The notes under the pieces are model-generated. The model made no database searches. It saw nothing but the letters and a program-made list of their open reading frames with translations, and had not been told where the DNA came from. A stretch of 52,968 bases of DNA from a virus (lineage: Duplodnaviria; Caudoviricetes): positions 1 to 52,968 of IMG/VR virus record IMGVR_UViG_3300030118_000298. The stretch is one strand, 5' to 3'. Shown here in pieces: positions 2,077-21,095 of this stretch (positions are counted from its first letter, which is position 1; each line of letters opens with the position of its first letter). A program made the position numbers and the translations under genes.

Positions 2077-2761
2077 AGTCTGAACCTCCTAGTTCATTGG
2101 TTAAATTAAATCCATCTTCTTCGACAAAACCGAAATCATCGAATGAATGGGTGGACTGTCCTGTTTCAACAGCAAGTTCTCCTGTGACAATCCTAGTCTG
2201 TTTAGTCCCCAAATGCTCATCGACATGCTTTTGGTTTGCATCACTATTGAATCCACGAAAACTAAATCTTAGTTTTGGGAAAGTCGCTAGTGTATCAAAC
2301 TCTATCCTTGTCCTTACTATCTCGGGTGCAATACCACGCATGGACAATTCTTTTTGATAAGCGTTCAAGTTCTTCAAAGACGCAGGAGTAACTTGTAGTA
2401 AGTATGCTTCACTAAATGGGGCCTTTGCTAAGACAACTGCCAATCGTTTCTGATCGACACAAGCCTTAACCTTAGACCCTGTTGGTGTAGTCCTAGAACC
2501 CCAAGCGTTCTGTGGGCAAGAAACACACATGTCATTCTGTATGGCATGACTGTTCTTATTCGGATATACACCATCTAGTGAATAGCAATCGGGAGTAGAA
2601 GACTGGCTATCTTCAGACCATTCCTCTGCATACCAAGATTTGGATAGCTTTGGATTCGCACCGACAATGACAACATCTATACTCTTGTCGAGTACAGTCT
2701 CCTCGTCACCACTGACAACACGAAACTCTTGTCCTTTGATAGATATCTTCGGTGCAATCAT
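2069..2761 (-). CDS. Phage replication protein, putative second ssDNA-binding/annealing protein with Cys motif
   Basis: PDCYSLDG..P, CVSCPQNAWGS..KAC motifs; acidic/aromatic C-terminus; replication-module context. Confidence 0.5.
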   Translation of the reverse strand: MIAPKISIKGQEFRVVSGDEETVLDKSIDVVIVGANPKLSKSWYAEEWSEDSQSSTPDCYSLDGVYPNKNSHAIQNDMCVSCPQNAWGSRTTPTGSKVKACVDQKRLAVVLAKAPFSEAYLLQVTPASLKNLNAYQKELSMRGIAPEIVRTRIEFDTLATFPKLRFSFRGFNSDANQKHVDEHLGTKQTRIVTGELAVETGQSTHSFDDFGFVEEDGFNLTNELGGSDYE

Positions 2762-3165
2762 TTATCGTCTGCCTTATTAACAGGCTTACGAACATTGACA
2801 TCTATTCGTGTGCCATAATTAACACCATCGGGAACAGCTTTGTTGGCATCAATATAGCCACGCACTGCTGTCTTACTGACTCTTTTCTCTAGCATATCCC
2901 ATGCTTCATTAGTCTTAATAAAACCTAGGACTGCATCCCAATCTCCCACTTGGGCAAAGTCGGTAGTCGTTATGAACGCTGTACCGAATGGTGTCTTCTT
3001 AGAAGTTTCACCATCAGCATCCATCTTTTCTTTTAGCCACGCTTCAAGTTTGAGAAGATTAGCTTTTATATCTGCAACCTTTTCTTTGGCTTCAGCTTCT
3101 ATAGCTTCCTTCTGTCCTCTCAACTTGAGGTATGTGGCAATAACTTTATCTGTAGTTAGTTCCAT
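2758..3165 (-). CDS. Conserved phage hypothetical protein (N-terminal coiled coil)
   Basis: GAGGTAACT RBS; overlaps the downstream gene. Confidence 0.6.
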   Translation of the reverse strand: MELTTDKVIATYLKLRGQKEAIEAEAKEKVADIKANLLKLEAWLKEKMDADGETSKKTPFGTAFITTTDFAQVGDWDAVLGFIKTNEAWDMLEKRVSKTAVRGYIDANKAVPDGVNYGTRIDVNVRKPVNKADDK

Positions 3166-3167
3166 AG

Positions 3168-4718
3168 TTACCTCGTTTCCTTCTGTATAAGGTCTAGTAA
3201 AAGACCTTGTAGTTTTTGTTTATTTTTTAATCTCTCATACATCTTATACTCTAGGTCTGTTGACTCTATGTGTATGACGTTTGAGACATGTTTCTTACCT
3301 ATCCTTTCAATGCGACCATTCGCTTGAATGTATTGCTCGTTGCTTGTCACTGGCCCATACCACACCACAGTAGATGCGGCGGTAAGAGTTAGACCATGTG
3401 CCATAGTTGCAGGGTGAGCAATCAATACATGTGGATTCTTTTCATTCTGAAAGTTATGAAAGATAGTGTTTCGTTTTGAAGAAGATACTTCTCCATTAAC
3501 AACAGCTACATCCCATGCCTTTGAGAGTTCTCTTTCCAACATGTTTAATGTTCCTGTAAGGGGAACAAAAACTATAACCTTACCTCCAACTTCCTCTATA
3601 ATTTCTTTAACAACTTTAACTCTTGGCGAACAATCAAGTTCAATGTGTCTGCCATCATCTCCGTACACTACACCACAACTTATCTGCACAAGTTTCTGTA
3701 GTTTTACGGCTTCATTGACAGCAGTGATTGTTCCTTCTTCTTCAAGCTGTGTTACAAAATGTTTCAACATTATTGCATAATGTCTCTTCTGTTCGGGGGT
3801 GAGGTCTATCTTCCTTGTTTGATAGACTGTATCGGGTAGGTCAAAGCATTCATCTCTTGTGTATCTAACAGCAGGATATAAAATATGTCTTACTGTTTCT
3901 ATTGATTCGGGTCTTGGTATCCACTTCCATTGTCCTATCTTCATCATTACAGCTTCTCTAAAAGCAGTATAAGTTTTGGTGCAGTAAGGACTATCTACTA
4001 GTTTAGCTAATGCCCAAGCATCAGTAGGATCATTCGGTGTGGGTGTACCTGTCATCAACCACAAACGAGTTCTTGGATGTTTGTCCATGAACTTCCTGAG
4101 CGTTCGAAATCTATTTGTTGATGGGTTTCTAAGAACAGCGGCTTCATCTACAATAACAAGGTCAAACATATTGACAGCATCATCGGATATAATATTGAAA
4201 CCATCGTGGTTTATAATATAAAAGTCTGCTTCTGTCTTGAGTAGCTTCTTTCTTCTTGCACTTGTTCCATGTAAAGTTAGTGATGTACGATGAGGAAAGT
4301 TCATAAAGATACCATCACCCCATACTCTCTCAAGTGTAGATAGTGGTGATATAATTAGTACCTTCTTAACTTCTCCTATCTCCATAAGATAATCTGATGC
4401 CCACAATGCTGACTGTGTTTTACCAGTTCCTATCTCGTTAAGTACCAATGCTTTCTTGTGCATGGTAAGAAAAGCAGAAGTCATGCGTTGATGTTCGTAA
4501 GGTGTATAACGACCTGTCCAGTTATAATAATGTAGTATGGGGGATGGTACTTGAAATCCTAGATTGCGTAACACCTTCACTTCGTCAAGTTTGTGTGGTG
4601 CTACAACAAGTTCTGCTCCGTCATACTTCAGCATGCGGGCCGTAGGAATCGTTTGTAAAATTTGATTTGGGTGCTTTGGGTTAAGAGCAATAGCTTTTGC
4701 TTGTTCAATAACAATCAT
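3168..4718 (-). CDS. SNF2/SF2 DNA helicase
   Basis: Walker A EIGTGKT, DEAA box, motif III TGTP, motif VI QANGRIERIG. Confidence 0.9.
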   Translation of the reverse strand: MIVIEQAKAIALNPKHPNQILQTIPTARMLKYDGAELVVAPHKLDEVKVLRNLGFQVPSPILHYYNWTGRYTPYEHQRMTSAFLTMHKKALVLNEIGTGKTQSALWASDYLMEIGEVKKVLIISPLSTLERVWGDGIFMNFPHRTSLTLHGTSARRKKLLKTEADFYIINHDGFNIISDDAVNMFDLVIVDEAAVLRNPSTNRFRTLRKFMDKHPRTRLWLMTGTPTPNDPTDAWALAKLVDSPYCTKTYTAFREAVMMKIGQWKWIPRPESIETVRHILYPAVRYTRDECFDLPDTVYQTRKIDLTPEQKRHYAIMLKHFVTQLEEEGTITAVNEAVKLQKLVQISCGVVYGDDGRHIELDCSPRVKVVKEIIEEVGGKVIVFVPLTGTLNMLERELSKAWDVAVVNGEVSSSKRNTIFHNFQNEKNPHVLIAHPATMAHGLTLTAASTVVWYGPVTSNEQYIQANGRIERIGKKHVSNVIHIESTDLEYKMYERLKNKQKLQGLLLDLIQKETR

Positions 4719-5014
4719 TGTTCGCCCTTAATATAAGTAATAACTTCTTGTATAGTTTCTTTGTCGTAAACTAAAAAACATTTGCCACCATTCATTTCTA
4801 TCTCCTTCATTGTTTTGGTCTGCAATGCAGTCGGCTTCTTTGTTTTATCAGCCTTGCATTCTATACCTACAAATCTACCCTTCACTATGGCTACCCTATC
4901 GGGTATACCTGCTTTACCGAAAGGCCCACTCTGTGGACTGTAAAACCAAACGTCAAGTTCTTTCAGTGACTTATCTAACCAACGTTTAATTTTTCCCTCG
5001 GGGGTATTACTCAT
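4715..5014 (-). CDS. VRR-NUC nuclease (Holliday junction resolvase-like)
   Basis: TPEGKIK..GIPD..FVGIECKA..PTALQ; likely start MSNTPE at 5014. Confidence 0.85.
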   Translation of the reverse strand: MSNTPEGKIKRWLDKSLKELDVWFYSPQSGPFGKAGIPDRVAIVKGRFVGIECKADKTKKPTALQTKTMKEIEMNGGKCFLVYDKETIQEVITYIKGEQ

Positions 5015-5036
5015 ATTATTATTCTTTACATAAATG

Positions 5037-5687
5037 TCAAGTAGCAAAATCACAAATATTTTTTGCAGGACAAAACCTACATAAACCACTAGGTTTAGGT
5101 GGCCATTTATTATTTATGAATGATTGATTAATCCGTTCTGTTTTACTCAATAACTTTACCCACATGTCATCTGACTCTGTTCTATCATATGTATGTGAGT
5201 CTAGTGCCATATCCTTCAGCCATACAAAAGTTGACTGGACTTGTTTTATATTTGGAAAATGTTGGAACACCTGCAATGCAAACATCTCTAGCTGTGAGAA
5301 GTCGGGTCTACGTTTGCCAGTCTTCCAATCCATAACGATAGCCTTATCATCAAACAAAACTAGAACATCAAGTATGGATCGTAACCAAGCGTCTTTCTCC
5401 CACCAAGTTGTTGGTGTAAGGTTTTCATTTAGTGTAAGCTTCTGCTCTACTTGTAAAGTTCCACCCATACCCTCTATGCTTTTACATAGAGGTTCATAGG
5501 CTTCTGACTCAGTAGGCAATGCCACCTGTTTATCTAGTCGATGTTCGAGTGCTTCGTGTATTCGCTCACCATAGATAGTGGCATCGCTACCTGTATCCTT
5601 TACTTCTTTGGTTACCCTTTGATGGTAATATCGTTTAGGGCAGTTCTCATACATCTTAATAGATGAGAACGAATGTGATAATGTCAT
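5037..5687 (-). CDS. PD-(D/E)XK exonuclease (RecB/Cas4-like)
   Basis: SFSSIKMYENCP, ILDV..MDWKTGK, QLEMFA, C-terminal LCRFCP..IC. Confidence 0.85.
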   Translation of the reverse strand: MTLSHSFSSIKMYENCPKRYYHQRVTKEVKDTGSDATIYGERIHEALEHRLDKQVALPTESEAYEPLCKSIEGMGGTLQVEQKLTLNENLTPTTWWEKDAWLRSILDVLVLFDDKAIVMDWKTGKRRPDFSQLEMFALQVFQHFPNIKQVQSTFVWLKDMALDSHTYDRTESDDMWVKLLSKTERINQSFINNKWPPKPSGLCRFCPAKNICDFAT

Positions 5688-8123: not shown

Positions 8124-8562
8124 CGTTACCTCCGTGTAAAGTGAATAATTCCACACCTTTACCACATTGTAAAGAGTGTTCATTAGAAATGTTTACAGCT
8201 TGACTTGCAGTAGCACCCATTGCCAACGCACCAAGTGCTATCTCCTTCCCATCTCCGAACGCAGAGTATGGTGCTGTGTTTGGTATCAACATCTTGTACG
8301 ATAATTCATACAGTCCGTCTTTCTTCACAACGATTAGCTTTGCTTGGCTAGGTGGTACATCGGGTTTGATATCGGGCATACCTTGTTGATACCATTCCGA
8401 TAGTTGTCTGATGTAGTGTGCTAGTCCAACACCTGTAATGATTACTACTTCTTTCTCCTTGCTCATGCCATACCAAGCCTTTGATGACTCCCATTTCTGA
8501 GAGCCATCATTAGCCATTCTGTCAGTAGCAAGGGTCTTTCCATCCCATGCTATTACTGTCAT
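8104..8562 (-). CDS. HslV/proteasome-beta-like Ntn-hydrolase
   Basis: N-terminal M-T(1)-VIAWDGKTLATD and C-terminal AFGDG..ALGALAMGATASQAV resemble the phage HslV-like family. Confidence 0.6.
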   Translation of the reverse strand: MTVIAWDGKTLATDRMANDGSQKWESSKAWYGMSKEKEVVIITGVGLAHYIRQLSEWYQQGMPDIKPDVPPSQAKLIVVKKDGLYELSYKMLIPNTAPYSAFGDGKEIALGALAMGATASQAVNISNEHSLQCGKGVELFTLHGGNDEQKEC

Positions 8563-9680
8563 AGTTTACTTACCTCCTCGATTGTTAATGTATTCTTTCC
8601 GTAAAAGGTGTACTGGTACTTCTCCTCACGCTTCTCATCATGTCCTTCTTTCTCAAAGACATTGAATCGTCTACGCAATTCGACCGACATGTCTGTCAGT
8701 ATCTTGTGAACACCATCAAATACTTCCTTGCTTGTAGGCTTGGACTGTTGATAGTACCCACTTGATGGTGTAGCACAGAACCCCAACAACAATTCTTTTG
8801 GGAACTCGTTGTCTCGTATTGATTGCTCAAGCAAGTCAAGCCAAGGTTTACTAGACCAATCGGGTTGCTTCCAATGGTATCTACTCTGCCCTTGTCTCTC
8901 TGCCCATATCTTCTCAATCAATGGGTCAAAGGCACGAACCTTTGCCCTTGCCTTGATACCACGCTTGAACTTGGCTAGTGCCTGTCGCCATACCTTACGC
9001 TCGTCAGCTTTCTCAACGAACTTGTCATCAGGTCTACGATTGAGACACTCACCAGTAATGATGTTGAACTTGAGACCTTGGAAATATGCAGGTGATTCCT
9101 TCATCATTCTGCTCTGTACACTCCATGTTGACATGTAACATTGAGACCTGAAGTCATTGCATATGGCTTCACCAACGTCATCAGATAGTAGCTTGGCTTG
9201 TTCTAGCTTGTTCTTAAACCAATTCTCTAGTTTGATAGCCATTCTCTTTGCATGATTACCTGTGTGTTGTACCCGATACAGACCTTTCTTGTGTCGTTCA
9301 AACATGAATGGTATCCAACGATACGATGATGACACAATAGATTGTGAGTGTTGCCATACCGCAGATGGTGGTGCAACAAACTCCACTACGTTGTCAGGTG
9401 TTATACGCATGAATGGTTGACTGCCGTACCCCTCAAGGTTGACGACATAAGATGTGACACCTTGTTGTACTGAGTCATGCTTGAACAGTCTGAAGCTTGC
9501 CGATATCTTACGACCTTTCTTGTGGTCACGACATCTTGCAAACTCTTTGGCAAACTGGTCATAGTTCTCTAGCCTACGACCACCATTGTTACCATCTGCA
9601 TAGCTGACGTATCGTCTCTCATCTTCCATCTGTCGTTCGATGTACTCAATGAGTTCTTGTTTGTTATTTACTTCTTCCAT
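8559..9680 (-). CDS. Hypothetical protein (373 aa)
   Basis: Long ORF with GAGGTAACT RBS; no motif recognised. Confidence 0.7.
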   Translation of the reverse strand: MEEVNNKQELIEYIERQMEDERRYVSYADGNNGGRRLENYDQFAKEFARCRDHKKGRKISASFRLFKHDSVQQGVTSYVVNLEGYGSQPFMRITPDNVVEFVAPPSAVWQHSQSIVSSSYRWIPFMFERHKKGLYRVQHTGNHAKRMAIKLENWFKNKLEQAKLLSDDVGEAICNDFRSQCYMSTWSVQSRMMKESPAYFQGLKFNIITGECLNRRPDDKFVEKADERKVWRQALAKFKRGIKARAKVRAFDPLIEKIWAERQGQSRYHWKQPDWSSKPWLDLLEQSIRDNEFPKELLLGFCATPSSGYYQQSKPTSKEVFDGVHKILTDMSVELRRRFNVFEKEGHDEKREEKYQYTFYGKNTLTIEEVSKL

Positions 9681-9687
9681 AGTTACC

Positions 9688-10380
9688 TCACTTTCTTGTT
9701 AGTTTGTTGAATGTTACTTGAGCCGTCATACTGTTTAAGTCTACACCAATATCTTCTGCTGTCTTTGGCTTAGGCTTCTCAGTAATTTTCTTGTGACGTT
9801 CCTTGGCATCATCGGGTAGTAAATCCCACAATGGTTGCCATGCTTTCAATGCAGGTGCTAGTGTTGTATAGGTAGTCACAATCCGTTTGACCCCTGCTAT
9901 AAACTCATCTTTCTTAGCTTCTGCATTGAAGATACCTTGGGTATACTTCTTGAATGGTTCATGTAACCATTCGAACTTCTCATTGTGGAAATCAATCTCA
10001 TTCCTTGAGTAGTCCATGTAGTACCCACTATCTCCTGCCTTCTGCCACACATCCTTCGGTGGGAAAGGCAATGGACTTGGTAGCTGTAGCTGTAAGTTTA
10101 CTCGCTTCCATGTCTCCACCTTGGTATGTGCTGTCTGCCATACATCTTCGGGTGCATCCTTGAACCCTGAAAGTGGTAGGCTTTCAATCTTACCAAAGAA
10201 TCCATTGGGCAAAGCATTCATCTTTGCTTGGATATCTGCTGAGAACAAACTGTCATACAGTTTCTTACCCCAGTCTTTTGGGTAGTTCTCTCTTGCTTTT
10301 TTGAGACTGTCATCAAACATTCTCTCTGCATTACGAACAATATCGTCTTGCAGTTGTTGGCTAAATCTTACTGTTGCCAT
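9688..10380 (-). CDS. Nmad5-like protein
   Basis: C-terminal TTLAPALKAWQPLWDLLP resembles the Nmad5 signature; start MATVRF after AAAGGAG. Confidence 0.5.
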   Translation of the reverse strand: MATVRFSQQLQDDIVRNAERMFDDSLKKARENYPKDWGKKLYDSLFSADIQAKMNALPNGFFGKIESLPLSGFKDAPEDVWQTAHTKVETWKRVNLQLQLPSPLPFPPKDVWQKAGDSGYYMDYSRNEIDFHNEKFEWLHEPFKKYTQGIFNAEAKKDEFIAGVKRIVTTYTTLAPALKAWQPLWDLLPDDAKERHKKITEKPKPKTAEDIGVDLNSMTAQVTFNKLTRK

Positions 10381-10553: not shown

Positions 10554-10737
10554 TGTTACCTCCTTGTGGATAAGCTATTTCTTTATCGGGTATTTCGATG
10601 TACCCTCTTGTTACTTTATGCTTGAAGTAGAGATACCCATTGGCTCTGTGCATAAACATATAGCCGTTGAGTATCTCCTTACTTGCGTATTCAAACACCT
10701 CATCTATGTCGTGTTCAGTTACGAGTTGCCTAGTCAT
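10540..10737 (-). CDS. Small hypothetical protein
   Basis: Start MTRQLV at 10737 after GGAGGG, overlapping the end of the vWA gene. Confidence 0.55.
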   Translation of the reverse strand: MTRQLVTEHDIDEVFEYASKEILNGYMFMHRANGYLYFKHKVTRGYIEIPDKEIAYPQGGNNGRS

Positions 10738-11860
10738 TGACACCCTCCATGTAGACAATCTCACCCCAAGGTGCATCGCCTTTCATGTTGGATACCCATA
10801 GAACTGGATACGCAGGTTCATCACCAAAGTCATCACAACACAAATCTGTGAGTACGACACAAGCAACAGGATCAATGTCATGGTCTTGCATGTATCTGAA
10901 GATAGGACTGAACGCAGTACCTCCACCACCATGTGGTTTGATTACTGGCTCATCATCTTCAAAGCAATCGTAGTGACAGACAACAGAGTCAAAGTAGATG
11001 ACATGTATCTTCTTAGGCGATAAGTCTTGGTAGACTTTGATAATCTCACTCGCAAACTGATTGAGTTCATCCTCACCAATCGAACCCGATGTGTCGATAG
11101 CAAAGCATAGTTCACCTAGTGCTTCACCCGATACGCTCGGTAGATACAGACCTTGTGACAAGAACCTTCTGTTTGGTCTTGCCCAAGTTCTCGTGTCAGT
11201 ACGTTGCTTGATAAGAAACCTCTGCATGACATCTTTCCAATTCACTCGTGGCTTCATCAAGTCACCAACGAATCGTTCAAGTCCTGCCGATAGTTTACCC
11301 ATCATCTTCGCAGACTGTGCCGCTTGAGCAACCTTGACTTTCCACTCTGCTTTCTTCTGCTCAATCTCAGCAGGGGATGAACCCTCTCCTGCATCTTCAA
11401 TGTCATCGTATGGTTTCATTCCGTCACCATACCCACCATCACCATCTTCGGGTATAGGTGGCAACAAGTTGTAGACACCATCGGTAGTACCACCACCTCG
11501 CTTGAGCAAGTCTCTGTCCATGACACCACCTTCGATGAACTTACCAATGCCCTCGTCTTCGAGCATTGGGTTGATGACGGCATCACCTGCATAGTTCCAA
11601 CGCTTTGGGTCACGATCATTCAAACGAAAGATGTGTTCAAACATTGGATGACAAACTTCGTGAGCAACGAGGAACAACAGTTCATCGTCTTTCAATGGCT
11701 CACAAAACTTAGGGTTAAACAACACACGGCTACCATTGGTAGCCGCTGTTGGAACATCCTCTGATAATTCAAAGGGCATGTTCATTGCCAAGTTACCAAA
11801 GAACGGATGCTCAAGTATGAGTGCCGTCTTTGCCTTGGCGATTCTTCTTTCTAAGTCCAT
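10730..11860 (-). CDS. Metallopeptidase (HExxH) plus vWA domain protein (DUF2201-like)
   Basis: TAATNG, AHEVCH zincin motif, WNYAGDAVIN; MIDAS DTSGS, GGGGTAF, VLTD. Confidence 0.85.
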   Translation of the reverse strand: MDLERRIAKAKTALILEHPFFGNLAMNMPFELSEDVPTAATNGSRVLFNPKFCEPLKDDELLFLVAHEVCHPMFEHIFRLNDRDPKRWNYAGDAVINPMLEDEGIGKFIEGGVMDRDLLKRGGGTTDGVYNLLPPIPEDGDGGYGDGMKPYDDIEDAGEGSSPAEIEQKKAEWKVKVAQAAQSAKMMGKLSAGLERFVGDLMKPRVNWKDVMQRFLIKQRTDTRTWARPNRRFLSQGLYLPSVSGEALGELCFAIDTSGSIGEDELNQFASEIIKVYQDLSPKKIHVIYFDSVVCHYDCFEDDEPVIKPHGGGGTAFSPIFRYMQDHDIDPVACVVLTDLCCDDFGDEPAYPVLWVSNMKGDAPWGEIVYMEGVND

Positions 11861-12711
11861 TAGTTACCTCCCATAAATGCACCCATCTTGTCCATAATAG
11901 CCTTCGCTTCCTCAGCCTTAGTACGTCTGAGGTCGGGGTCATTACGCAAACTTTCTGGGTGGTTGTTAGCCAAACTCCCCTCAACTTGTTGTCGCATGGC
12001 TTCCAAGTTTGGGTCGTCAGCAAAGTTCAACCGACTCAATATCGAACAGACTTCCTTAGTATTCTCTACCAAGGTATCTCTGAACACAGACTTTGGGTCG
12101 GCAAGTTTCTCAGCCATGTGTTTCACTCGGTCATACAATCTTTGCCAAGCTTCTTTCATAGCTTGTTGAGCCGCATCTTGTACTCTCGACTCAACGTCTT
12201 GCTGTATTCTCTCCAGTTCTTCATTACCGATACTCACACGGAAGTCATTGGATGGTACTGGAAACACAGCCATGTCCATCTTGAACTTACGTTGGATATC
12301 ATGCAGAGCAGGATAGTCAGCCTTGTTGTACAAACTACCAAGGAATCTCTGTGCATCTGCATGCAGTCTTGGATACTCTTGGTAGAATGTATCAACAAGT
12401 TGTTGCCAGTCAGACTTCTCTTTCCTAAACTCTGTCATAAAGTTTAGGTAGTTAGCTGATGGCAACATCATCGTACCTTCGATACCCCAAGGTAAGGTGT
12501 TCGTATAGAACTTCTTACGGATTAGGGTAGACTTCTTATGAATGTTAGTCAGAGCATCGTCCATTGGTAGCAACGATTTGTTGTACCTACCTGCTGTCAA
12601 TGCACTGGCATTCTGTAAGGCAACCTGTTCGGTTGCCTTCTTGTCATACTTTCTTGCTGTCCATTGAGAAATATTCAACTGGACAAGCAATGCTTTATCG
12701 CTCAACTTCAT
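11860..12711 (-). CDS. Conserved phage protein (DUF3150-like) in the AAA/vWA cluster
   Basis: Start MKLSDKALLVQLNISQW at 12711 with GGAGGTAACT RBS; lies between the AAA and vWA genes. Confidence 0.55.
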   Translation of the reverse strand: MKLSDKALLVQLNISQWTARKYDKKATEQVALQNASALTAGRYNKSLLPMDDALTNIHKKSTLIRKKFYTNTLPWGIEGTMMLPSANYLNFMTEFRKEKSDWQQLVDTFYQEYPRLHADAQRFLGSLYNKADYPALHDIQRKFKMDMAVFPVPSNDFRVSIGNEELERIQQDVESRVQDAAQQAMKEAWQRLYDRVKHMAEKLADPKSVFRDTLVENTKEVCSILSRLNFADDPNLEAMRQQVEGSLANNHPESLRNDPDLRRTKAEEAKAIMDKMGAFMGGN

Positions 12712-12721
12712 AGTTACCTCC

Positions 12722-14871: not shown

Positions 14872-14900
14872 ACTTTATCAAATCGATTTCGTTTTGTAAA
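14872..14900 (-). promoter_or_regulatory. Sigma70-like early promoter
   Basis: TTTACA-17nt-TAAAGT; same architecture as 16324-16352. Confidence 0.6.
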
Positions 14901-16323: not shown

Positions 16324-16352
16324 AAGCTATCAAAACAATACATGTTTGTCAA
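16324..16352 (-). promoter_or_regulatory. Sigma70-like early promoter
   Basis: TTGACA-17nt-TAGCTT. Confidence 0.7.
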
Positions 16353-16516: not shown

Positions 16517-16544
16517 TTGACATAGTTCCGGTTTACGGTATGCT
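16517..16544 (+). promoter_or_regulatory. Sigma70-like promoter for terS (probably a leaderless mRNA)
   Basis: TTGACA-16nt-TATGCT, 6 nt before ATG 16551. Confidence 0.55.
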
Positions 16545-16550
16545 CTACTT

Positions 16551-17027
16551 ATGGATACGCTACCATTGAAACATACTAAGTGGTCTGACCGTTTAGCTTT
16601 TGATGTTGCTCTTATGTTAGAGGGCAGCGGAGAGTCTTTGGATGAAGTAATCGAAAGACATAAAATCAAAGCTGAGGATATAATCACTTACAATAAAGAT
16701 CAGGTCTTTTTGAAGAAGGTCGAGTCTTACAGGAATGAAATCCGCGATAAAGGAATGACGTTCAAAGTTAAGGCCCGTGCACAGGCAGAAGAACTCCTGA
16801 CAACTTCTTGGACTTTGATACATAGTCCTGATGTGTCGGCTGCAGTAAAAGCAGACCTCATCAAGTCTACTGTTAAGTGGGGCGGGCTAGAACCAAAGAA
16901 TGATGTTCTGGCAGAAGGAGGATCAGGTGGAGTTAAAATTACAATTAACCTCGGAGATCAAGAACACCGAGCAACTATCATTGATGCAGAGCCAGATGAC
17001 GAACCAGTTGCCATCGGAACTTCTTGA
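16551..17027 (+). CDS. terS: Terminase small subunit (putative)
   Basis: First gene of the late arm, upstream of TerL; helical N-terminus, C-terminal VKITINL beta segment. Confidence 0.65.
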   Translation: MDTLPLKHTKWSDRLAFDVALMLEGSGESLDEVIERHKIKAEDIITYNKDQVFLKKVESYRNEIRDKGMTFKVKARAQAEELLTTSWTLIHSPDVSAAVKADLIKSTVKWGGLEPKNDVLAEGGSGGVKITINLGDQEHRATIIDAEPDDEPVAIGTS

Positions 17028-17313
17028 GAAGTTTAATACAGTCTACGAAGGTACAAAGGCTTGTAAGCTAACTAGTATGTTAGACCATGATACATTAGTA
17101 GCACACTTAAATAATTTAGGTGTACCTTATAAAACAAAAATTTTACGAAAACCATCCACAGTGTATTATGTATTACTTGTGGAAAACCTGTGTATAGATC
17201 ACGGAAACTGTGACAGATGCGGGGACAAGCTTGTGGACATCTCGTGGTGCAAACATTGTGGAGATATGGGTTGGTTTGAAGAATGGACTACAATGCAGGG
17301 ATATTGGGGTTAG
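16996..17313 (+). CDS. Hypothetical protein with C-terminal CxxC-CxxC finger
   Basis: CDRCG..WCKHCG; start uncertain (MTNQLP at 16996 assumed). Confidence 0.5.
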   Translation: MTNQLPSELLEKFNTVYEGTKACKLTSMLDHDTLVAHLNNLGVPYKTKILRKPSTVYYVLLVENLCIDHGNCDRCGDKLVDISWCKHCGDMGWFEEWTTMQGYWG

Positions 17314-18693
17314 ATGGATATAGATTATACGCCAACTAAAACCTGTAAAGATTTTATGATGTCAGACGCAAAGATGCGTGTGCTCATGGGGCCAGTTGGT
17401 TCTGGTAAATCAGTAGCAAGTTGTTTTGAAGTTATCAGACGAGCTACAATGCAAAAGCCAAACAAACAAGGGATTCGCAAATCACGAGTAGCTATTGTTC
17501 GTGAAACTGCCAGACAGTTGCAGGATACAACTATAAAAACTTTCCATGATTGGTTTCCGCCCGGAATATGCGGAGACTATATGCGTACTACCAAAACATA
17601 TTTTTTCAAAGTCGGAGATGTAGAGTGTGAGATTATGTTTCGTGCTCTCGATGATTCTGACGATGTTGCAAACTTGAACTCATTAGAATTAACGTTTGCA
17701 TGGTTCAACGAGTGCAGGGATATCAACCCTGACATTGTTGATGCTATGTCAAAACGTATAGGGCGATTCCCGTCATCTAAAGATGGTGGCCCTTCTTGGT
17801 TTGGGATGTGGGGGGATACTAACCCTCCAACAATGGATACATGGTGGTATTATCAGATGGAGGGTTTAGACTCTTCAGATGGTGTAAGTCTTAATGATAA
17901 CGGGTGGGATGTATTCAAACAACCTTCGGGCAGAAGCTCCTTGGCAGAAAATGTTGATAACCTGCCCGAAGGCTACTACGATACCCAAGGTAGATCAGAA
18001 GAATACATTCGTGTATACATAGATGGTGAGTATGGATTAAGTTCTGCAGGTCAGCCTGTATATAAATACTTCAAACCAGACTATCATATGGCTAATGAAA
18101 AACTACGGCCAATCATAAATGGTGTACGCCCAGTTGTAGTTGGAATAGATTTAGGCTTGACACCAGCAGCAGTTATAGGGCAACAAGACCCTCGCGGGCG
18201 AGTCCTTGTTTTGGATGAAGCTGTATCATTTGATATGGGCATACAAAGATTCGTCCGCACCATCCTGCGCCCGATGTTGACCGAAAGGTTTTCGGGCGCA
18301 CCAATACTTATCGTTACAGACCCAGCAGGAGTGCAACGTGCACAGACTGACGAGAGGTCTGCCGTAGATATCATAAAAGCAGAAGGTTTTAGAGTTCTCC
18401 CAGCTAAGACCAACAATGTATCTGCACGACTATCTGCGGTAGACGACTTCCTTATGAGGCAAGTCGATGGGGACTCAGCGTTTTTAGTTGATCCTAGATG
18501 TACGCAGCTCAAGGCTGCAATGATGGGAGGATACAGATTCCATTATAAGAATGGCAATATTGATAAGAACAAACACTCACATGTAGCAGAAGCGTTGCAA
18601 TATTTAATGTTGCATGTTGGCTCTGCAGGTGAAGGAGGGTTTGTTGTACAGAGAAGAGAAATAAAAAGGGTTGCGGCAGGAGGATGGACTTGA
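17314..18693 (+). CDS. terL: Terminase large subunit
   Basis: Walker A GPVGSGKS, Walker B AWFNE, DTNPP, nuclease GIDLG, HSHVAEALQY. Confidence 0.92.
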   Translation: MDIDYTPTKTCKDFMMSDAKMRVLMGPVGSGKSVASCFEVIRRATMQKPNKQGIRKSRVAIVRETARQLQDTTIKTFHDWFPPGICGDYMRTTKTYFFKVGDVECEIMFRALDDSDDVANLNSLELTFAWFNECRDINPDIVDAMSKRIGRFPSSKDGGPSWFGMWGDTNPPTMDTWWYYQMEGLDSSDGVSLNDNGWDVFKQPSGRSSLAENVDNLPEGYYDTQGRSEEYIRVYIDGEYGLSSAGQPVYKYFKPDYHMANEKLRPIINGVRPVVVGIDLGLTPAAVIGQQDPRGRVLVLDEAVSFDMGIQRFVRTILRPMLTERFSGAPILIVTDPAGVQRAQTDERSAVDIIKAEGFRVLPAKTNNVSARLSAVDDFLMRQVDGDSAFLVDPRCTQLKAAMMGGYRFHYKNGNIDKNKHSHVAEALQYLMLHVGSAGEGGFVVQRREIKRVAAGGWT

Positions 18694-18731
18694 TACAATC
18701 ACCAAATAGTTACCTTCCTATGGTTACCTTC

Positions 18732-18772
18732 AAGCCCACCTGTTCTCCTTTCTGGCAGGTGGGCTTTTCTTT
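18732..18772 (+). terminator. Intrinsic terminator after terL; loop contains anti-SD-like TTCTCCTTT
   Basis: AAGCCCACCTG/CAGGTGGGCTT stem plus TTCTTT. Confidence 0.8.
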
Positions 18773-18785
18773 GAATTTAAAATAC

Positions 18786-18814
18786 TTGCATATATACTTG
18801 TTCCTATGTATATT
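18786..18814 (+). promoter_or_regulatory. Putative promoter of the structural operon
   Basis: TTGCAT-17nt-TATATT just after the terminator. Confidence 0.5.
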
Positions 18815-19061: not shown

Positions 19062-21095
19062 ATGGTACTGCAAGTCGTAGGAAATGAAGAACTAGTAAAG
19101 CAAGAAGAAGCTCTTACTAAACAACAGCTAGCTGAAAGGCAGAACCAGCCTATTATATTAGGCTTGGCTGACCACCTACGAACTTGTTGGGATGCAGCAA
19201 GGCAGGCAAAGAAACCTATCGAAAACATTATGTTGAAAGCACTCCGTCAAAGAAACGGAGAGTACGAGGCAGATAAACTAGCACAGATTAACCAGCAAGG
19301 TGGGTCTGACGTTTACATGATGGTTACAGAAGTTAAATGTCGTGCAGCAGAAAGTTGGTTGCGTGATATTCTTCTTGATCAGGGTTCACCCCCGTGGGGT
19401 CTTGAGCCTACACCTATACCAGACTTGTCACCACAACAGACAGTAGAGATAGAGAATTCGTTTGCTGAGCAAGTTGTAAAACTTGTCGAGCTAAACGGGC
19501 AAGCACCAACACAAGAAGAAATGATAGAATTGAAAGAAATGGTAACACAAGATTATCGTTTCAAACTATTGCAAGGTGCAGATAACCGTGCAAAGAAAAT
19601 GGATATTAAGATTCGTGATCAGTTTACACAAGGTGGTTGGGGCGAATCATTTAATGAATTTATCACCGATTTGGTTACATACCCATGTGCTTTTATCAAA
19701 GGCCCTGTGGTTCGTAGGCAAAGAAAACTTGGCTGGAAATATGAAAATGGTAGAACTACTGTAGAAGCAGATGAGATTATTGCTCCAGAGTTTGAACGTG
19801 TTGATCCATTTAGAATATATCCTGAGCCGGGTATAACTAATCTTAATGATGGTTATTTGTTTCAGCATCATCCGCTAAGTCGTTCAGAACTTGCAGACCT
19901 TATAGGTGTGCCGGGTTATGATGAGGATGCCATCAGGGAAGTTCTTGATATTGGTAATGGTACATCTTGGTTTAGTGAAGATGTAGAGCTTACTAAAGAG
20001 AACGAAGAAAGAAAGTTTCATACGTTTAACAAACCAACTACGACTTATGATGCCTTAGAGTTTTGGGGTAAAGTAAGTGGTAAGATGTTGAAAGAGTGGG
20101 GACTTACTGAAGAAGAGATACCTGATGAAGCAAAAGAGTATGATGCTAACGTTTGGGCCGTAGGTAACTACATCATTAAAGCAGTATTAAACTACGACCC
20201 GTTAGGAGAAAAACCATATGCTAAGACATCGTTTATTAAATGCCCCGGTGCGTTTTGGGGTAAAGGTATACCAGAAATTATTGAAGATTTGCAGAACATT
20301 TGTAATGCAGCTGCAAGGGCTTTGGTCAACAATATGGGGATATCTTCCGGCCCGCAAGTCGAAGTTAACCTCGAAAGAATCCCGCCCAACGAAGACATCA
20401 CGCAGCTCCACCCGTGGAAAATCTGGCAAGTCACGAACGACCCGTTAGGTTCTAGTGCACCTGCTGTTAGATTTACACAACCGGATGACAACGCAAACAC
20501 GTTGTTAGGTGTTTATGATAAATTTTCTAAACTAGCTGATGACCAATCAGGCATACCATCTTATGTTTACGGTGACCTAAATGTACAGGGAGCTGGTAGA
20601 ACATCTTCTGGTTTGTCTATGTTGATGGGCGCAGCTGGTAAAGGTATTCGTCAAGTTGTTATGCACATAGATAACGAAATCATCAAACCTATTGTCCACA
20701 GACAGTTTGTGTACAACATGCGTTATGATGAAGATGAATCAATTAAAGGCGATGTTAACATTGTACCAAAAGGTGCAGTTAACCTTGCAGTCAAAGAGAC
20801 TGTAAATGTTCGCCGTATCGAGTTTCTTAATGCAACCGCCAACGAGGTTGATATGCAAATTGTTGGTAAGGAAGGCCGTGCAGCGATTCTTCGCGAAGTG
20901 GCTAAAGGGTTGCAAATGCCTGTGGATGACATTGTTCCGTCTAGGGAAAAAGAACGATTCCAAGATAAGGTTAAGGCGCAGATGCAAGCTCAACAGCAAG
21001 CTCAGCAACCTACACCGACTCAGCCGGATGGTTCTCCCAAAGGAGGAATGGATGGCAACACAGTGAGTAACCGTGACACTGGAGGTGCTGGATGA
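19062..21095 (+). CDS. Portal protein
   Basis: Size and position after TerL; VDPFRIYP, FWGKGIPE, DQSGIP, GRTSSGLSMLM; Q-rich tail. Confidence 0.85.
   Translation: MVLQVVGNEELVKQEEALTKQQLAERQNQPIILGLADHLRTCWDAARQAKKPIENIMLKALRQRNGEYEADKLAQINQQGGSDVYMMVTEVKCRAAESWLRDILLDQGSPPWGLEPTPIPDLSPQQTVEIENSFAEQVVKLVELNGQAPTQEEMIELKEMVTQDYRFKLLQGADNRAKKMDIKIRDQFTQGGWGESFNEFITDLVTYPCAFIKGPVVRRQRKLGWKYENGRTTVEADEIIAPEFERVDPFRIYPEPGITNLNDGYLFQHHPLSRSELADLIGVPGYDEDAIREVLDIGNGTSWFSEDVELTKENEERKFHTFNKPTTTYDALEFWGKVSGKMLKEWGLTEEEIPDEAKEYDANVWAVGNYIIKAVLNYDPLGEKPYAKTSFIKCPGAFWGKGIPEIIEDLQNICNAAARALVNNMGISSGPQVEVNLERIPPNEDITQLHPWKIWQVTNDPLGSSAPAVRFTQPDDNANTLLGVYDKFSKLADDQSGIPSYVYGDLNVQGAGRTSSGLSMLMGAAGKGIRQVVMHIDNEIIKPIVHRQFVYNMRYDEDESIKGDVNIVPKGAVNLAVKETVNVRRIEFLNATANEVDMQIVGKEGRAAILREVAKGLQMPVDDIVPSREKERFQDKVKAQMQAQQQAQQPTPTQPDGSPKGGMDGNTVSNRDTGGAG

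What the first reader, a model, noticed from the sequence alone, without database searches (positions are those of the whole stretch)
18694..18772. terL 3'-UTR looks like a multi-seed antisense RNA against early-gene ribosome-binding sites
Seen: the ~80 nt between the terL stop and the end of its terminator contain ATAGTTACCTTCC (18706-18718), a second GTTACCTTC (18723-18731) and a terminator loop TTCTCCTTTCTG (18743-18754). As + strand RNA, ATAGTTACCT is a perfect 10-nt complement of the SD/spacer/start of genes 3165, 9680 and 12711. It gives 9 nt for 11860 and 7 nt for 8123 and 10553, extendable by G-U pairs. The loop complements the RBS of 10380 (AAAGGAGAA, 9 nt) and of the AAA gene 13714 (CAGAAAGGA, 9 nt). 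On the - strand these SD-like words have no ATG behind them. Established: 3'-UTR-derived sRNAs repress by SD pairing. Inference: a late-made trans RNA that silences the early/replication arm, an RNA-based early-to-late switch.
Basis: partly seen in the sequence, partly recalled or inferred. Interest (0 to 1): 0.75.

Follow-up and report, generated by a model that had tools for sequence, protein, structure and literature searches.

The report
Phage small RNA targeting early genes
Directly behind the terminase gene of this uncultured marine phage there appears to be a small regulatory RNA gene whose exposed parts can pair with the ribosome-loading sites of several of the phage's own early genes, and many related phages share this layout.

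Summary
ATAGTTACCT occurs four times in the window: at 18706 and, as exact complements, at the start regions of genes 3165, 9680 and 12711.

The stretch is more than a terminator. In 49 distinct relatives the terL stop is followed by TGnTAnnnT, with TTGC 17 nt upstream. That is a conserved extended -10 promoter. It predicts a discrete RNA of about 67 nt, 18706-18772, with the seed at its 5' end.

In 9 of 11 related phage records this spot is top or tied top among all plus-strand 60-nt windows for 8-nt complementarity to early start regions. Late start regions show no enrichment.

Seeds differ between clades. They often still match the start region of the same early gene, a DUF3150-like gene: at least 9 nt in 13 of 25 contigs against a 3% null. 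The clade permutation test gives p=0.017.

Not shown: the RNA itself, its timing, or repression. The promoter resembles the two early promoters, so "late-made" is unsupported. The terminator-loop targets are generic.

The scan noted the same element before on other DNA (e1-6292950).

The parts
17314..18693 (+). terL (large terminase), 459 aa. Its last codons and its stop codon carry the promoter of the small RNA.
   Evidence: PHROG phrog_2, terminase large subunit, E 6e-25. ORF listed.
18671..18676 (+). -35 box TTGCGG, inside the terL codons Val-Ala-(Ala)
   Evidence: TTGC is invariant in 48-49 of 49 distinct relatives. The Val third base is T in 48 of 49 (46 of the 47 with Val; both Ile codons are ATT), whereas four other conserved four-fold sites show 0.35-0.51 for their commonest base. 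Spacing to the -10 is 17 nt.
18691..18699 (+). Extended -10 element TGaTACAAT. TG is the first two bases of the TGA stop; the hexamer is 18694-18699.
   Evidence: Across 49 distinct relatives: stop TGA 48/49, then T 49/49, A 48/49, three freely varying bases, T 48/49.
18706..18772 (+). Predicted small RNA of about 67 nt. The start is inferred as the 7th base after the -10; the end is the U-tract of the terminator.
   Evidence: Seven variable bases follow the -10, then conservation starts abruptly at (A/G)TAGTTACC in 15 clade-A sequences. Fold -24.8 kcal/mol, z -4.78, 0 of 200 shuffles as stable. The start and the RNA itself have not been observed.
18706..18718 (+). Seed 1, ATAGTTACCTTCC, at the predicted 5' end. 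It complements AGGTAACTAT of early start regions.
   Evidence: TAGTTACCT is invariant in 15 of 15 clade-A sequences.
18723..18731 (+). Seed 2, GTTACCTTC, predicted single-stranded in close relatives (in the window's own fold 18722-18727 sit in the weak hairpin). It complements G(A/G)AGGTAAC with one G-U pair.
   Evidence: GTTA.CT invariant; unpaired in the folds of the close relatives; window fold.
18732..18766 (+). Intrinsic terminator hairpin: stem 18732-18743 / 18755-18766, loop 18744-18754 (CU-rich), followed by TTCTTT to 18772.
   Evidence: Three stem pairs change on both sides in relatives. The loop of 11-13 nt is larger than the 3-7 nt loops of the other terminators found.
12710..12719 (-). 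Predicted target: start region of the DUF3150-like gene 11860-12711 (GGAGGTAACTATG).
   Evidence: 10-nt perfect complement. The ortholog's start region is matched by at least 9 nt in 13 of 25 contigs. Weak Pfam DUF3150 match.
9679..9688 (-). Predicted target: start region of gene 8559-9680 (373 aa, no family).
   Evidence: 10-nt complement. Net cofold energy -18.7 kcal/mol.
3164..3173 (-). Predicted target: start region of gene 2758-3165 (135 aa).
   Evidence: 10-nt complement. Net cofold energy -19.1 kcal/mol, the best of 61 start regions.
11861..11869 (-). Predicted target: start region of the metallopeptidase/VWA gene 10730-11860.
   Evidence: 9-nt complement. Pfam DUF2201_N and DUF2201. 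Net cofold energy -18.2 kcal/mol.
18786..18814 (+). Separate promoter of the structural operon (TTGCAT, 17 nt, TATATT). It marks the right-hand border of the element.
   Evidence: Read. A similar TTGC..-17-TAT(A/T)(A/T)T arrangement follows the terminator in most relatives printed. Not tested further.

Best explanation
The stretch is a small RNA gene nested at the 3' end of terL.

A host-type promoter drives it: -35 TTGCGG inside the last terL codons, and an extended -10, TGaTACAAT, that uses the terL stop codon. This should start an RNA at about 18706 that ends at the terL terminator, giving about 67 nt. The same sequence is also the 3' tail of the terS-terL mRNA.

Its 5' end (AUAGUUACCUUCC) and a second word (GUUACCUUC) can pair with the SD-spacer-AUG region of a set of minus-strand (early/replication-arm) genes that share the start region GAGGUAACUAUG. 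These include the DUF3150-like gene and the VWA-peptidase gene of the MoxR module, plus genes 3165 and 9680. Pairing there would block 30S binding and so lower translation, and probably also the stability, of those mRNAs.

Shown here: the conserved promoter signature, the conserved hairpin layout, the early-specific excess of complementarity in most relatives, and partial tracking of one target's start region across clades.

Inferred: the transcription start, the existence of the RNA, pairing in vivo, the direction of the effect, and the timing.
For: (1) Promoter. In 49 distinct relatives the non-coding bases after terL read TGA (48/49), T (49/49), A (48/49), nnn (free), T (48/49). TTGC lies 17 nt upstream. 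The Val third base is T in 48/49, against 0.35-0.51 at four other conserved four-fold sites. In clade A, seven variable bases follow, then invariant TAGTTACCT.

(2) Complementarity in the window. There are three exact 10-nt complements, all at start regions. Duplex energies are -15.4 for early and -12.2 for late start regions, p=0.0095. 0 of 200 dinucleotide shuffles reach the observed top-5 early energy.

(3) Relatives. Counts of early start regions with an 8-nt complement are 6/24, 6/24, 5/27, 8/23, 8/27, 1/26 and 4/20 in G000-G006, with p<=0.005 in 6 of 7. Late start regions are never significant. Among all + strand 60-nt windows outside minus-strand genes, this spot is top or tied top in 9 of 11 records. 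Taking the other strand as the RNA gives 0-1 matches, and the reversed sequence gives 0-2. Net cofold energy is lower for early than late start regions in 11 of 11 records, with p<0.05 in 7 of 11.

(4) Different seeds, same logic. In clade B the terminator loop UUUACUCC complements GGAGUAAA, the commonest early start-region word there. In clade C the hairpin loop UUACUCAUUUG complements ACAAAUGAGUAA of 5 early starts. In clade E UUCAUAGUUACC gives 12 nt with 2 starts.

(5) One recurring target. The DUF3150-like gene's start region has at least 9 nt of complement in the same contig's element in 13 of 25 contigs, against a shuffled-target null of 3%. By clade this is A 6/7, C 4/4, D 1/3, E 1/4, B 1/4. 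The clade-level permutation test gives 0.017.

(6) No conserved ORF on either strand.
Against: - No RNA evidence. The four metatranscriptome runs gave only seven short contig pieces from three of them, with no ends or strand.
- The promoter pattern by itself is not rare in one genome: 17 sites against 15 expected.
- Duplex-energy shuffles were not significant in G003, G004 and G005.
- G005 shows no enrichment. G010 is not top-ranked.
- 12 of 25 contigs lack a 9-nt match to the DUF3150-like start region, including 3 of 4 in clade E and all 3 single-contig clades.
- Clades A and E share their seed by descent, so independent co-variation rests on about three states, and the permutation p is only 0.017.
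- Part of the complementarity is generic anti-SD. One coding site in a late gene (40163 AGTTACCTCC) scores as high by chance.
- The G-U over A-C excess in the flanks (175:125) is weak, and base composition was not controlled.
- 'Early' is taken from strand only. Gene starts come from my own simple caller.
- The host, and any RNA chaperone it may have, are unknown.
Confidence: 0.55

Rival explanations
1. A real conserved RNA element, but with another job. Examples: a 3' stabiliser or processing signal of the terL mRNA, a Rho-loading C-rich tract, or a small RNA aimed mainly at host mRNAs. Under this reading the match to the phage's own early start regions is a by-product of an anti-SD-like sequence.
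For: - CU-rich anti-SD-like words (CCUC, CUCC, CCUUC) are unpaired in 33 of 52 distinct relatives.
- The window's terminator loop matches generic SD words of late genes too.
- G005 and three small clades lack specific matches.
- The host is unknown, so host targets could not be searched.
Against: - Late start regions carry SD words as well, yet they are not enriched in any of 7 genomes.
- The matches extend into the spacer and the start codon.
- Composition-preserving shuffles fail to reproduce the counts.
- The seeds partly follow one gene's start region across clades.
Confidence: 0.15
2. The functional strand is the minus strand. The words are a true early-type ribosome-binding site for a short ORF, or the relic of a gene start, lying antisense to the end of terL.
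For: - The highest-scoring other windows are the physical antisense of real early start regions.
- 42 of 52 distinct relatives have at least one minus-strand ATG ORF starting here, some behind a good SD, for example AAGGAGTAAC-ATG in clade D.
- Clade C keeps a 17-19 aa ORF.
Against: - 10 of 52 relatives, including the window, have no ATG ORF. Frames are 0, 1 or 2 and lengths run from 3 to 73 aa.
- Stem changes in the hairpins alter the would-be peptide.
- The clade B terminator loop (GGAGUAAA on the minus strand) has no start codon behind it, by reading.
- The terminator's U-tract and the conserved -10 signature are on the + strand.
- The minus-strand promoter hit at 18846-18817 is a 9-of-12 match overlapping the next gene's start. 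No better one was seen.
Confidence: 0.08
3. A DNA-level signal: binding sites for a phage protein that also binds at early gene junctions.
For: - The same 10-mer occurs at four places.
- Repeats are direct in clade A and inverted in clades B and C.
- The site lies 55-80 bp upstream of the structural-operon promoter.
Against: - What is conserved is the loop or single-stranded content, while stems vary between clades.
- The words change between clades together with start-region words. A fixed protein site would not be expected to do this.
- All distant copies sit exactly on SD-spacer-ATG.
Confidence: 0.08
4. An ordinary terminator region. The complementarity is chance plus base composition, noticed after the fact.
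For: - A 10-nt match between an 80-nt stretch and about 25 start regions is only moderately unlikely in one genome.
- One coding site at 40163 reaches the same count.
- GTTACCTTC occurring twice is reached by 7 of 100 shuffles.
Against: - The same location is extreme in 9 of 11 records with different words.
- Seeds are invariant while the 7 nt before them vary freely.
- The conserved TAnnnT signature is present.
- The nearest cultured phages have no such spacer at all: 2-9 nt separate terL from the next gene.
Confidence: 0.07

Closest known systems
3'-end small RNAs made from a promoter inside the upstream coding region and sharing the mRNA's terminator (for example DapZ and MicL of enterobacteria; these names and this classification are recalled, not checked here)
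   Same: - The promoter overlaps the end of the upstream ORF.
- The RNA shares the terminator with the mRNA.
- The conserved seed lies at or near the 5' end.
- The predicted action is pairing at ribosome-binding sites of several mRNAs.
   Different: - It is encoded by a lytic-type phage genome and aimed at the phage's own genes.
- There is no sequence relation to the enterobacterial RNAs.
- Chaperone dependence is unknown.
- The RNA has not been observed.
c4 antisense RNA of phages P1 and P7
   Same: It is a phage RNA whose short complementary words, probably presented in loops, pair around the ribosome-binding site of a phage mRNA and block translation (review PMC12197685, passages read).
   Different: - c4 controls the antirepressor and is tied to immunity between P1 and P7.
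- c4 is cut from the same transcript as its target (recalled, not checked here). Here the RNA and its targets lie on opposite strands, 6-15 kb apart.
- Several early genes are predicted targets here.
- No Rfam family reaches its gathering score in the window.
T4 RegB and RegA (protein-based shut-off of early mRNAs at their start regions)
   Same: The logic is the same: the phage acts on SD/start regions of its own early mRNAs. RegB cuts GGAG in early mRNAs (abstract of PMC1702504, listing). The T4 review PMC3014915 was seen in the listing only.
   Different: Those are proteins: a nuclease and a repressor. Here the proposed effector is an RNA. There is no homology.
RybB-type small RNAs with 5'-end seeds (Rfam RF00110)
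   Same: A short RNA with the seed at the very 5' end and an intrinsic terminator. There is a weak model match at 18709-18772.
   Different: The score is 18.2 bits against a gathering score of 40, with E=0.3. It is not a member.
Terminator loops of small RNAs acting in regulation (SdsR, RseX, ArrS on fepA; PMC11979758, abstract read)
   Same: Loops of intrinsic terminators can carry regulatory information. Here the clade B terminator loop UUUACUCC is invariant while the stems change.
   Different: In that paper one section heading states that the loops act 'likely without base-pairing' (outline). Here base-pairing is what is predicted. In the window's own clade the loop is not conserved.

Membership tests
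Intrinsic (Rho-independent) terminator | G+C-rich hairpin directly followed by a U-tract, placed after a stop codon | tested here: met
   12-bp stem at 18732-18743 / 18755-18766, then TTCTTT. Energy -24.8 kcal/mol, z -3.8 and -4.8. Present in relatives, with three pairs changed on both sides.
Sigma-70-type promoter with extended -10 | TGn + TAnnnT hexamer, a -35 TTG about 17 nt upstream, conserved where coding does not require it | tested here: met
   TGA 48/49, T 49/49, A 48/49, nnn free, T 48/49. TTGC invariant. The Val third base is T in 48/49 against 0.35-0.51 at control sites. The pattern alone is not rare in one genome.
Sigma-70-type promoter with extended -10 | Observed transcription start | not testable with these tools
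   Only assembled contigs of RNA runs were available, and these cannot show starts.
Base-pairing small RNA with an ORF-internal promoter (3'-end type) | Own promoter in the upstream ORF, and a terminator shared with the mRNA | tested here: met
   all in silico.
Base-pairing small RNA with an ORF-internal promoter (3'-end type) | A conserved seed with more complementarity to target start regions than controls | tested here: met
   Seed invariant in 15 of 15 clade-A sequences. Enrichment in 6 of 7 genomes at k=8. Top or tied top in 9 of 11 records.
Base-pairing small RNA with an ORF-internal promoter (3'-end type) | Compensatory change of seed and target across relatives | tested here: inconclusive
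   13 of 25 contigs keep at least 9 nt to the DUF3150-like start region, with three different seed states. The clade permutation gives p=0.017. 12 of 25 contigs do not.
Base-pairing small RNA with an ORF-internal promoter (3'-end type) | A stable short RNA in cells, and dependence on a chaperone | not testable with these tools
   One search is uninformative. The host is unknown.
P1/P7 c4 RNA family | Sequence and structure match to the curated model | tested here: not met
   No Rfam family reaches its gathering score in the whole window. It is not among the two weak matches at E<=1.
RybB (RF00110) | Score at or above the gathering threshold | tested here: not met
   18.2 bits against 40.
Protein-coding gene in the spacer (either strand) | An open frame kept in register across relatives | tested here: not met
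   + strand frames are open for at least 45 codons in 5, 7 and 14 of 52 relatives. Minus-strand ATG ORFs are absent in 10 of 52 and use frames 0, 1 and 2, with lengths of 3-73 aa.

The most novel reading that the evidence does not exclude
An abundant lineage of uncultured marine phages carries a dedicated small RNA gene welded to the terL stop codon. This RNA is the master post-transcriptional regulator of a regulon of the phage's own early genes, in particular the MoxR/DUF3150/VWA module. Its seeds and the start regions of those genes co-evolve. It would be an RNA counterpart of the protein-based early-mRNA shut-off of T4.
Probability: 0.4. Interest if true: 0.8.

Novelty: new variant of a known kind. 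Interest (0 to 1): 0.68.

Why it matters
Trans-acting small RNAs are well known in bacteria and prophages. I found no description of a lytic-type phage using one against the ribosome-binding sites of its own early genes. The evidence for that absence:
- Five full-text searches.
- The passages of the 2025 review PMC12197685 returned by my term search, which has no occurrence of 'terminase' or 'early gene'.

Supplementary files of papers were not seen.

The element is conserved in a phage group with at least 598 relatives in IMG/VR. It gives concrete, cheaply testable predictions: a 5' end at 18706, four named targets, and compensatory mutations.

If it holds, it adds an RNA layer to phage gene timing. 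It would also be a compact, programmable translation-control part.

Tried and rejected
1. Minus-strand small gene. Rejected: no conserved frame or start.

2. Plus-strand ORF across the spacer (18684/18690-18845). Rejected: frames are not kept, and clade A has indels that are not multiples of three.

3. Known RNA family. None at gathering score. Only sub-threshold atoC and RybB matches.

4. Close annotated phages. None by DNA; TerL identity is at most 43%. The two nearest cultured phages have no spacer after terL.

5. Expression. The look-up of sequencing runs listed 14 DNA runs holding at least half of the sampled words, and RNA runs with shares of 0.09 or less. Laying X15, X17, X19 and X20 gave seven short contig pieces (none from X17), with no ends, no strand and no bridging of the whole element. 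This says nothing either way.

6. Duplex energies with dinucleotide shuffles. Not significant in G003, G004 and G005.

7. G-U versus A-C in seed flanks: 175 against 125. Too weak, and composition was not controlled.

8. RNAalifold on clade B. The MAFFT alignment misplaced the terminator, so I drew no conclusion from it. My automatic terminator picker mislabelled some hairpins, so I do not use its loop statistics.

9. TTGATAnnnT as a promoter-class mark. It is too common: 32 sites.

10. Rows dropped:
- The doubtful internal GTG start at 4885 gave the strongest duplex, -28.2. It was left out from then on.
- ORFs with an SD score below 3, and + strand ORFs starting within 150 nt after the terL stop, were left out of all start-region sets from then on.
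- In one search, genes 2-985 and 16900-17313 were added by hand.
- Loci without 120 nt after terL (L020, L038, L043) were left out of the relative set.

Full report
**What is there.** The window is a nearly complete virus record of 52,968 bases (99% complete by the record's estimate). Minus-strand genes fill 1 to about 16,700. They include an SNF2 helicase, a family A DNA polymerase, a MoxR-like AAA protein, a DUF3150-like protein and a metallopeptidase/VWA protein. Plus-strand genes run from 16,551 to 50,750. They include terL at 17314-18693 and the portal at 19062-21095. The finding is the 79 bases after the terL stop.

ATAGTTACCT occurs exactly four times in the window, all on the plus strand. 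One copy is at 18706. The other three lie on the SD-spacer-AT(G) of the minus-strand genes starting at 3165, 9680 and 12711. Allowing one mismatch gives 15 sites against 5.25 expected, and 0 of 100 shuffles reach that number. The 9-nt and 7-nt matches to 11860, 8123 and 10553, and the loop matches to 10380 and 13714, are also real. The hairpin at 18732-18766 with its U-tract is a strong intrinsic terminator.

**Is it more than chance in this genome?** Six early genes share the start region G(G)AGGTAAC(T/A)ATG. Three tests point the same way:
- RNAduplex of the pre-terminator part gives -15.4 kcal/mol on average for 25 early start regions and -12.2 for 37 late ones, one-sided p=0.0095.
- None of 200 dinucleotide shuffles reaches the observed top-five early energy or the early-minus-late difference.
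- Perfect 8-nt complements hit 6 of 24 early start regions against a shuffle mean of 0.68 (p=0.0025), and 3 of 37 late ones (p=0.09).

With unfolding costs included (cofold), the three best of 61 start regions are 3165, 9680 and 11860, at -18 to -19 kcal/mol.

One caution: a coding site in a late gene (40163, AGTTACCTCC) matches as many early start regions by chance. One genome alone would therefore not carry the case.

**Relatives.** There is no close cultured phage. The best TerL identity is 43%, and only a trace shows up by DNA. IMG/VR holds at least 598 relatives. The best 80 loci have 83-100% TerL identity. 78 of the 81 loci then held (the 80 plus the window's own L081) have at least 120 nt after terL, and these fall into 52 distinct sequences.

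Every clade has a spacer here, with one to three small hairpins and a terminator, but the sequences differ strongly between clades. The two nearest cultured phages have no spacer at all, with 2-9 nt between terL and the next gene.

I fetched ten longer records. I called genes with a simple caller of my own and took minus-strand genes as 'early'.

Perfect 8-nt complements between the element (pre-terminator part plus terminator loop) and early start regions number 6/24, 6/24, 5/27, 8/23, 8/27, 1/26 and 4/20 in G000-G006. They are significant at p<=0.005 in six of the seven. Late start regions are never significant.

Against a genomic background of all 60-nt plus-strand windows outside minus-strand genes, the spot behind terL is top or tied top in 9 of 11 records. 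The share of windows reaching its count is 0.0004-0.0043 in ten records and 0.035 in the incomplete G010. Taking the other strand as the RNA gives 0-1 matches. The reversed sequence gives 0-2. The rival top windows I looked at were mostly the physical antisense of early start regions that my caller had missed.

**Different seeds, same logic.**
- Clade A uses ATAGTTACCTTCC and GTTACCTTC.
- In clade B a single-stranded UUCAUAUUUG, a hairpin loop UUUUCCUCUC and the terminator loop UUUACUCC are conserved. UUUACUCC is the complement of GGAGUAAA, the commonest early start-region word in that genome.
- In clade C a hairpin loop UUACUCAUUUG complements ACAAAUGAGUAA at five early starts.
- In clade E UUCAUAGUUACC gives 12-nt matches with two early starts.

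Sorting matched genes by orthology shows one recurrent partner: the DUF3150-like gene, window 11860-12711. I took its start region and the element from the same contig in 25 contigs. The longest perfect complement is at least 9 nt in 13 of them and at least 10 nt in 8. With shuffled targets the rates are 3% and 0.8%.

The matches use three different word pairs:
- AGGUAACUAU with AUAGUUACCU in clades A and E;
- AAUGAGUAAA with UUUACUCAUU in clade C;
- AUGAAUGAAAC with GUUUCAUUCAU in one clade D record.

A fourth pair, GAGAGGAAA with UUUCCUCUC, appears in one clade B contig.

A permutation of clade labels (8 clades, 21 contigs) places the own-clade sum in the top 1.7%. This is real but partial tracking. 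Three of four clade E contigs, two of three clade D contigs, three of four clade B contigs and the three single-contig clades lack a 9-nt match. Clades A and E share their state by descent.

**A promoter, not just a tail.** I tested this on 49 distinct relatives.
- The stop codon is TGA in 48.
- The next bases are T (49), A (48), three freely varying bases, and T (48).

This is the signature of an extended -10 element, TGnTAnnnT, in non-coding sequence. Seventeen bases upstream, TTGC is invariant inside the codons Val-Ala. The Val third base is T in 48 of 49 sequences. Four other conserved four-fold sites in the last 150 codons show only 0.35-0.51 for their commonest base.

In the window this gives a -35 at 18671-18676 and a -10 at 18694-18699. 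The expected start, seven bases on, is 18706, exactly the first base of ATAGTTACC. In the clade A alignment the seven bases after the -10 vary almost freely and conservation begins abruptly at (A/G)TAGTTACC. In clades D and E the conserved sequence likewise begins, at the same distance, with GUCA of a 5' hairpin.

The pattern alone is not rare in a single genome, with 17 sites against 15 expected. The evidence is therefore the cross-clade conservation.

The predicted product is an RNA of about 67 nt, 18706-18772, that folds at -24.8 kcal/mol, z -4.8. Read-through from terL would carry the same sequence as a 3' tail.

**Timing.** The two promoters at the head of the early arm have the same TTGATAnnnT form: TTGACA-17-TGATAGCTT at 16352 and TTTACA-17-TGATAAAGT at 14900, both on the minus strand. 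The structural-operon promoter after the terminator does not, by my reading. Nothing therefore supports 'late-made'. If anything, the RNA is made by the host polymerase together with its targets, which would make it a damper or delay element rather than a late switch. This is inference.

**Rivals.**
- A minus-strand gene start would give the same complementarity. But 10 of 52 distinct relatives, including the window, have no ATG ORF. Frames and lengths are inconsistent. The promoter and terminator signatures are on the plus strand.
- No plus-strand ORF is kept either.
- A DNA-binding site does not explain why loops are conserved while stems change, nor why the words follow start-region words.
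- A generic anti-SD tract does not explain the lack of any late-gene enrichment.
- A role aimed at host mRNAs, or at terL mRNA stability, cannot be excluded.

**What is known.** Rfam has no family here at gathering score. RybB and atoC give sub-threshold matches. The nearest concepts are:
- 3'-end small RNAs with ORF-internal promoters (recalled);
- the c4 RNA of P1/P7, which pairs around a ribosome-binding site (review passages);
- regulatory terminator loops (abstract);
- the T4 proteins RegB and RegA, which act on early start regions (abstract and listing).

Five full-text searches and the review passages showed no phage small RNA at the terL 3' end acting on the phage's own early start regions.

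**Verdict.** The anatomy is corrected to a discrete small RNA gene with its own promoter. The 'late' timing is not supported. The terminator-loop targets in this window are probably generic. There is no experimental evidence yet.

Noticed in passing
window 16517-16553: A near-consensus promoter, TTGACA-16-TATGCT, ends 6 nt before the ATG of gene 16551-17027, the first gene of the terS/terL arm, which has no SD. The predicted start at the 7th base would fall on the A of the ATG. This suggests a leaderless mRNA.
   Followed up: no
window 3165, 8123, 9680, 10553, 11860, 12711 (minus strand): Six early genes share an extended start region, G(G)AGGTAAC(T/A/G)(A)ATG. Two are identical over 15 nt (GAGGTAACTATGGAA at 3165 and 9680). 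The upstream stop codons sit in three different registers, so coupling alone does not explain the shared motif.
   Followed up: partly
window about 4860-4890 (minus strand, inside gene 4715-5089): The start-region window at the doubtful GTG start 4885 gave the strongest duplex with the element, -28.2 kcal/mol. It lies inside a gene and was dropped from later counts. It was not examined in relatives.
   Followed up: no
window 40163-40172: AGTTACCTCC lies inside the late gene 39730-42183. It complements seven early start regions, apparently by chance.
   Followed up: partly
loci L037, L049, L060-L077 (terminator loops after terL): In clades D and E the terminator loop reads (A/U)UUG(C/U)CC(C) in all members while the stems differ. 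No early start region with an 8-nt complement to this loop was found in G005 or G006. In L065 the loop UUUGCCU complements AGGCAAA in the DUF3150-like start region.
   Followed up: partly
window 14872-14900 and 16324-16352 (minus strand): The two early promoters share -35/17 nt/TGATAnnnT, and both are followed by ATCGGCA.
   Followed up: partly
window 42186-50750: A 2,854-aa ORF at the end of the late arm has no Pfam match at E<=0.001.
   Followed up: no
window 50962-52602 (minus strand): A 546-aa protein with a DUF927 domain, E 7e-27. The start regions of its orthologs have 9-11 nt complements in the elements of clade B and of G007.
   Followed up: partly
clade A loci (13 of the 15 sequences aligned, e.g. 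L003-L017): In 13 of 15 clade-A sequences seed 1 (AUAGUU) pairs with AACUAU(G) a few bases downstream, giving a 6-7 bp hairpin with the loop ACCUUCC. The RNA thus carries a copy of the target's spacer and start codon that masks part of its own seed. The window and L001 have a 2-nt deletion that weakens this hairpin.
   Followed up: partly
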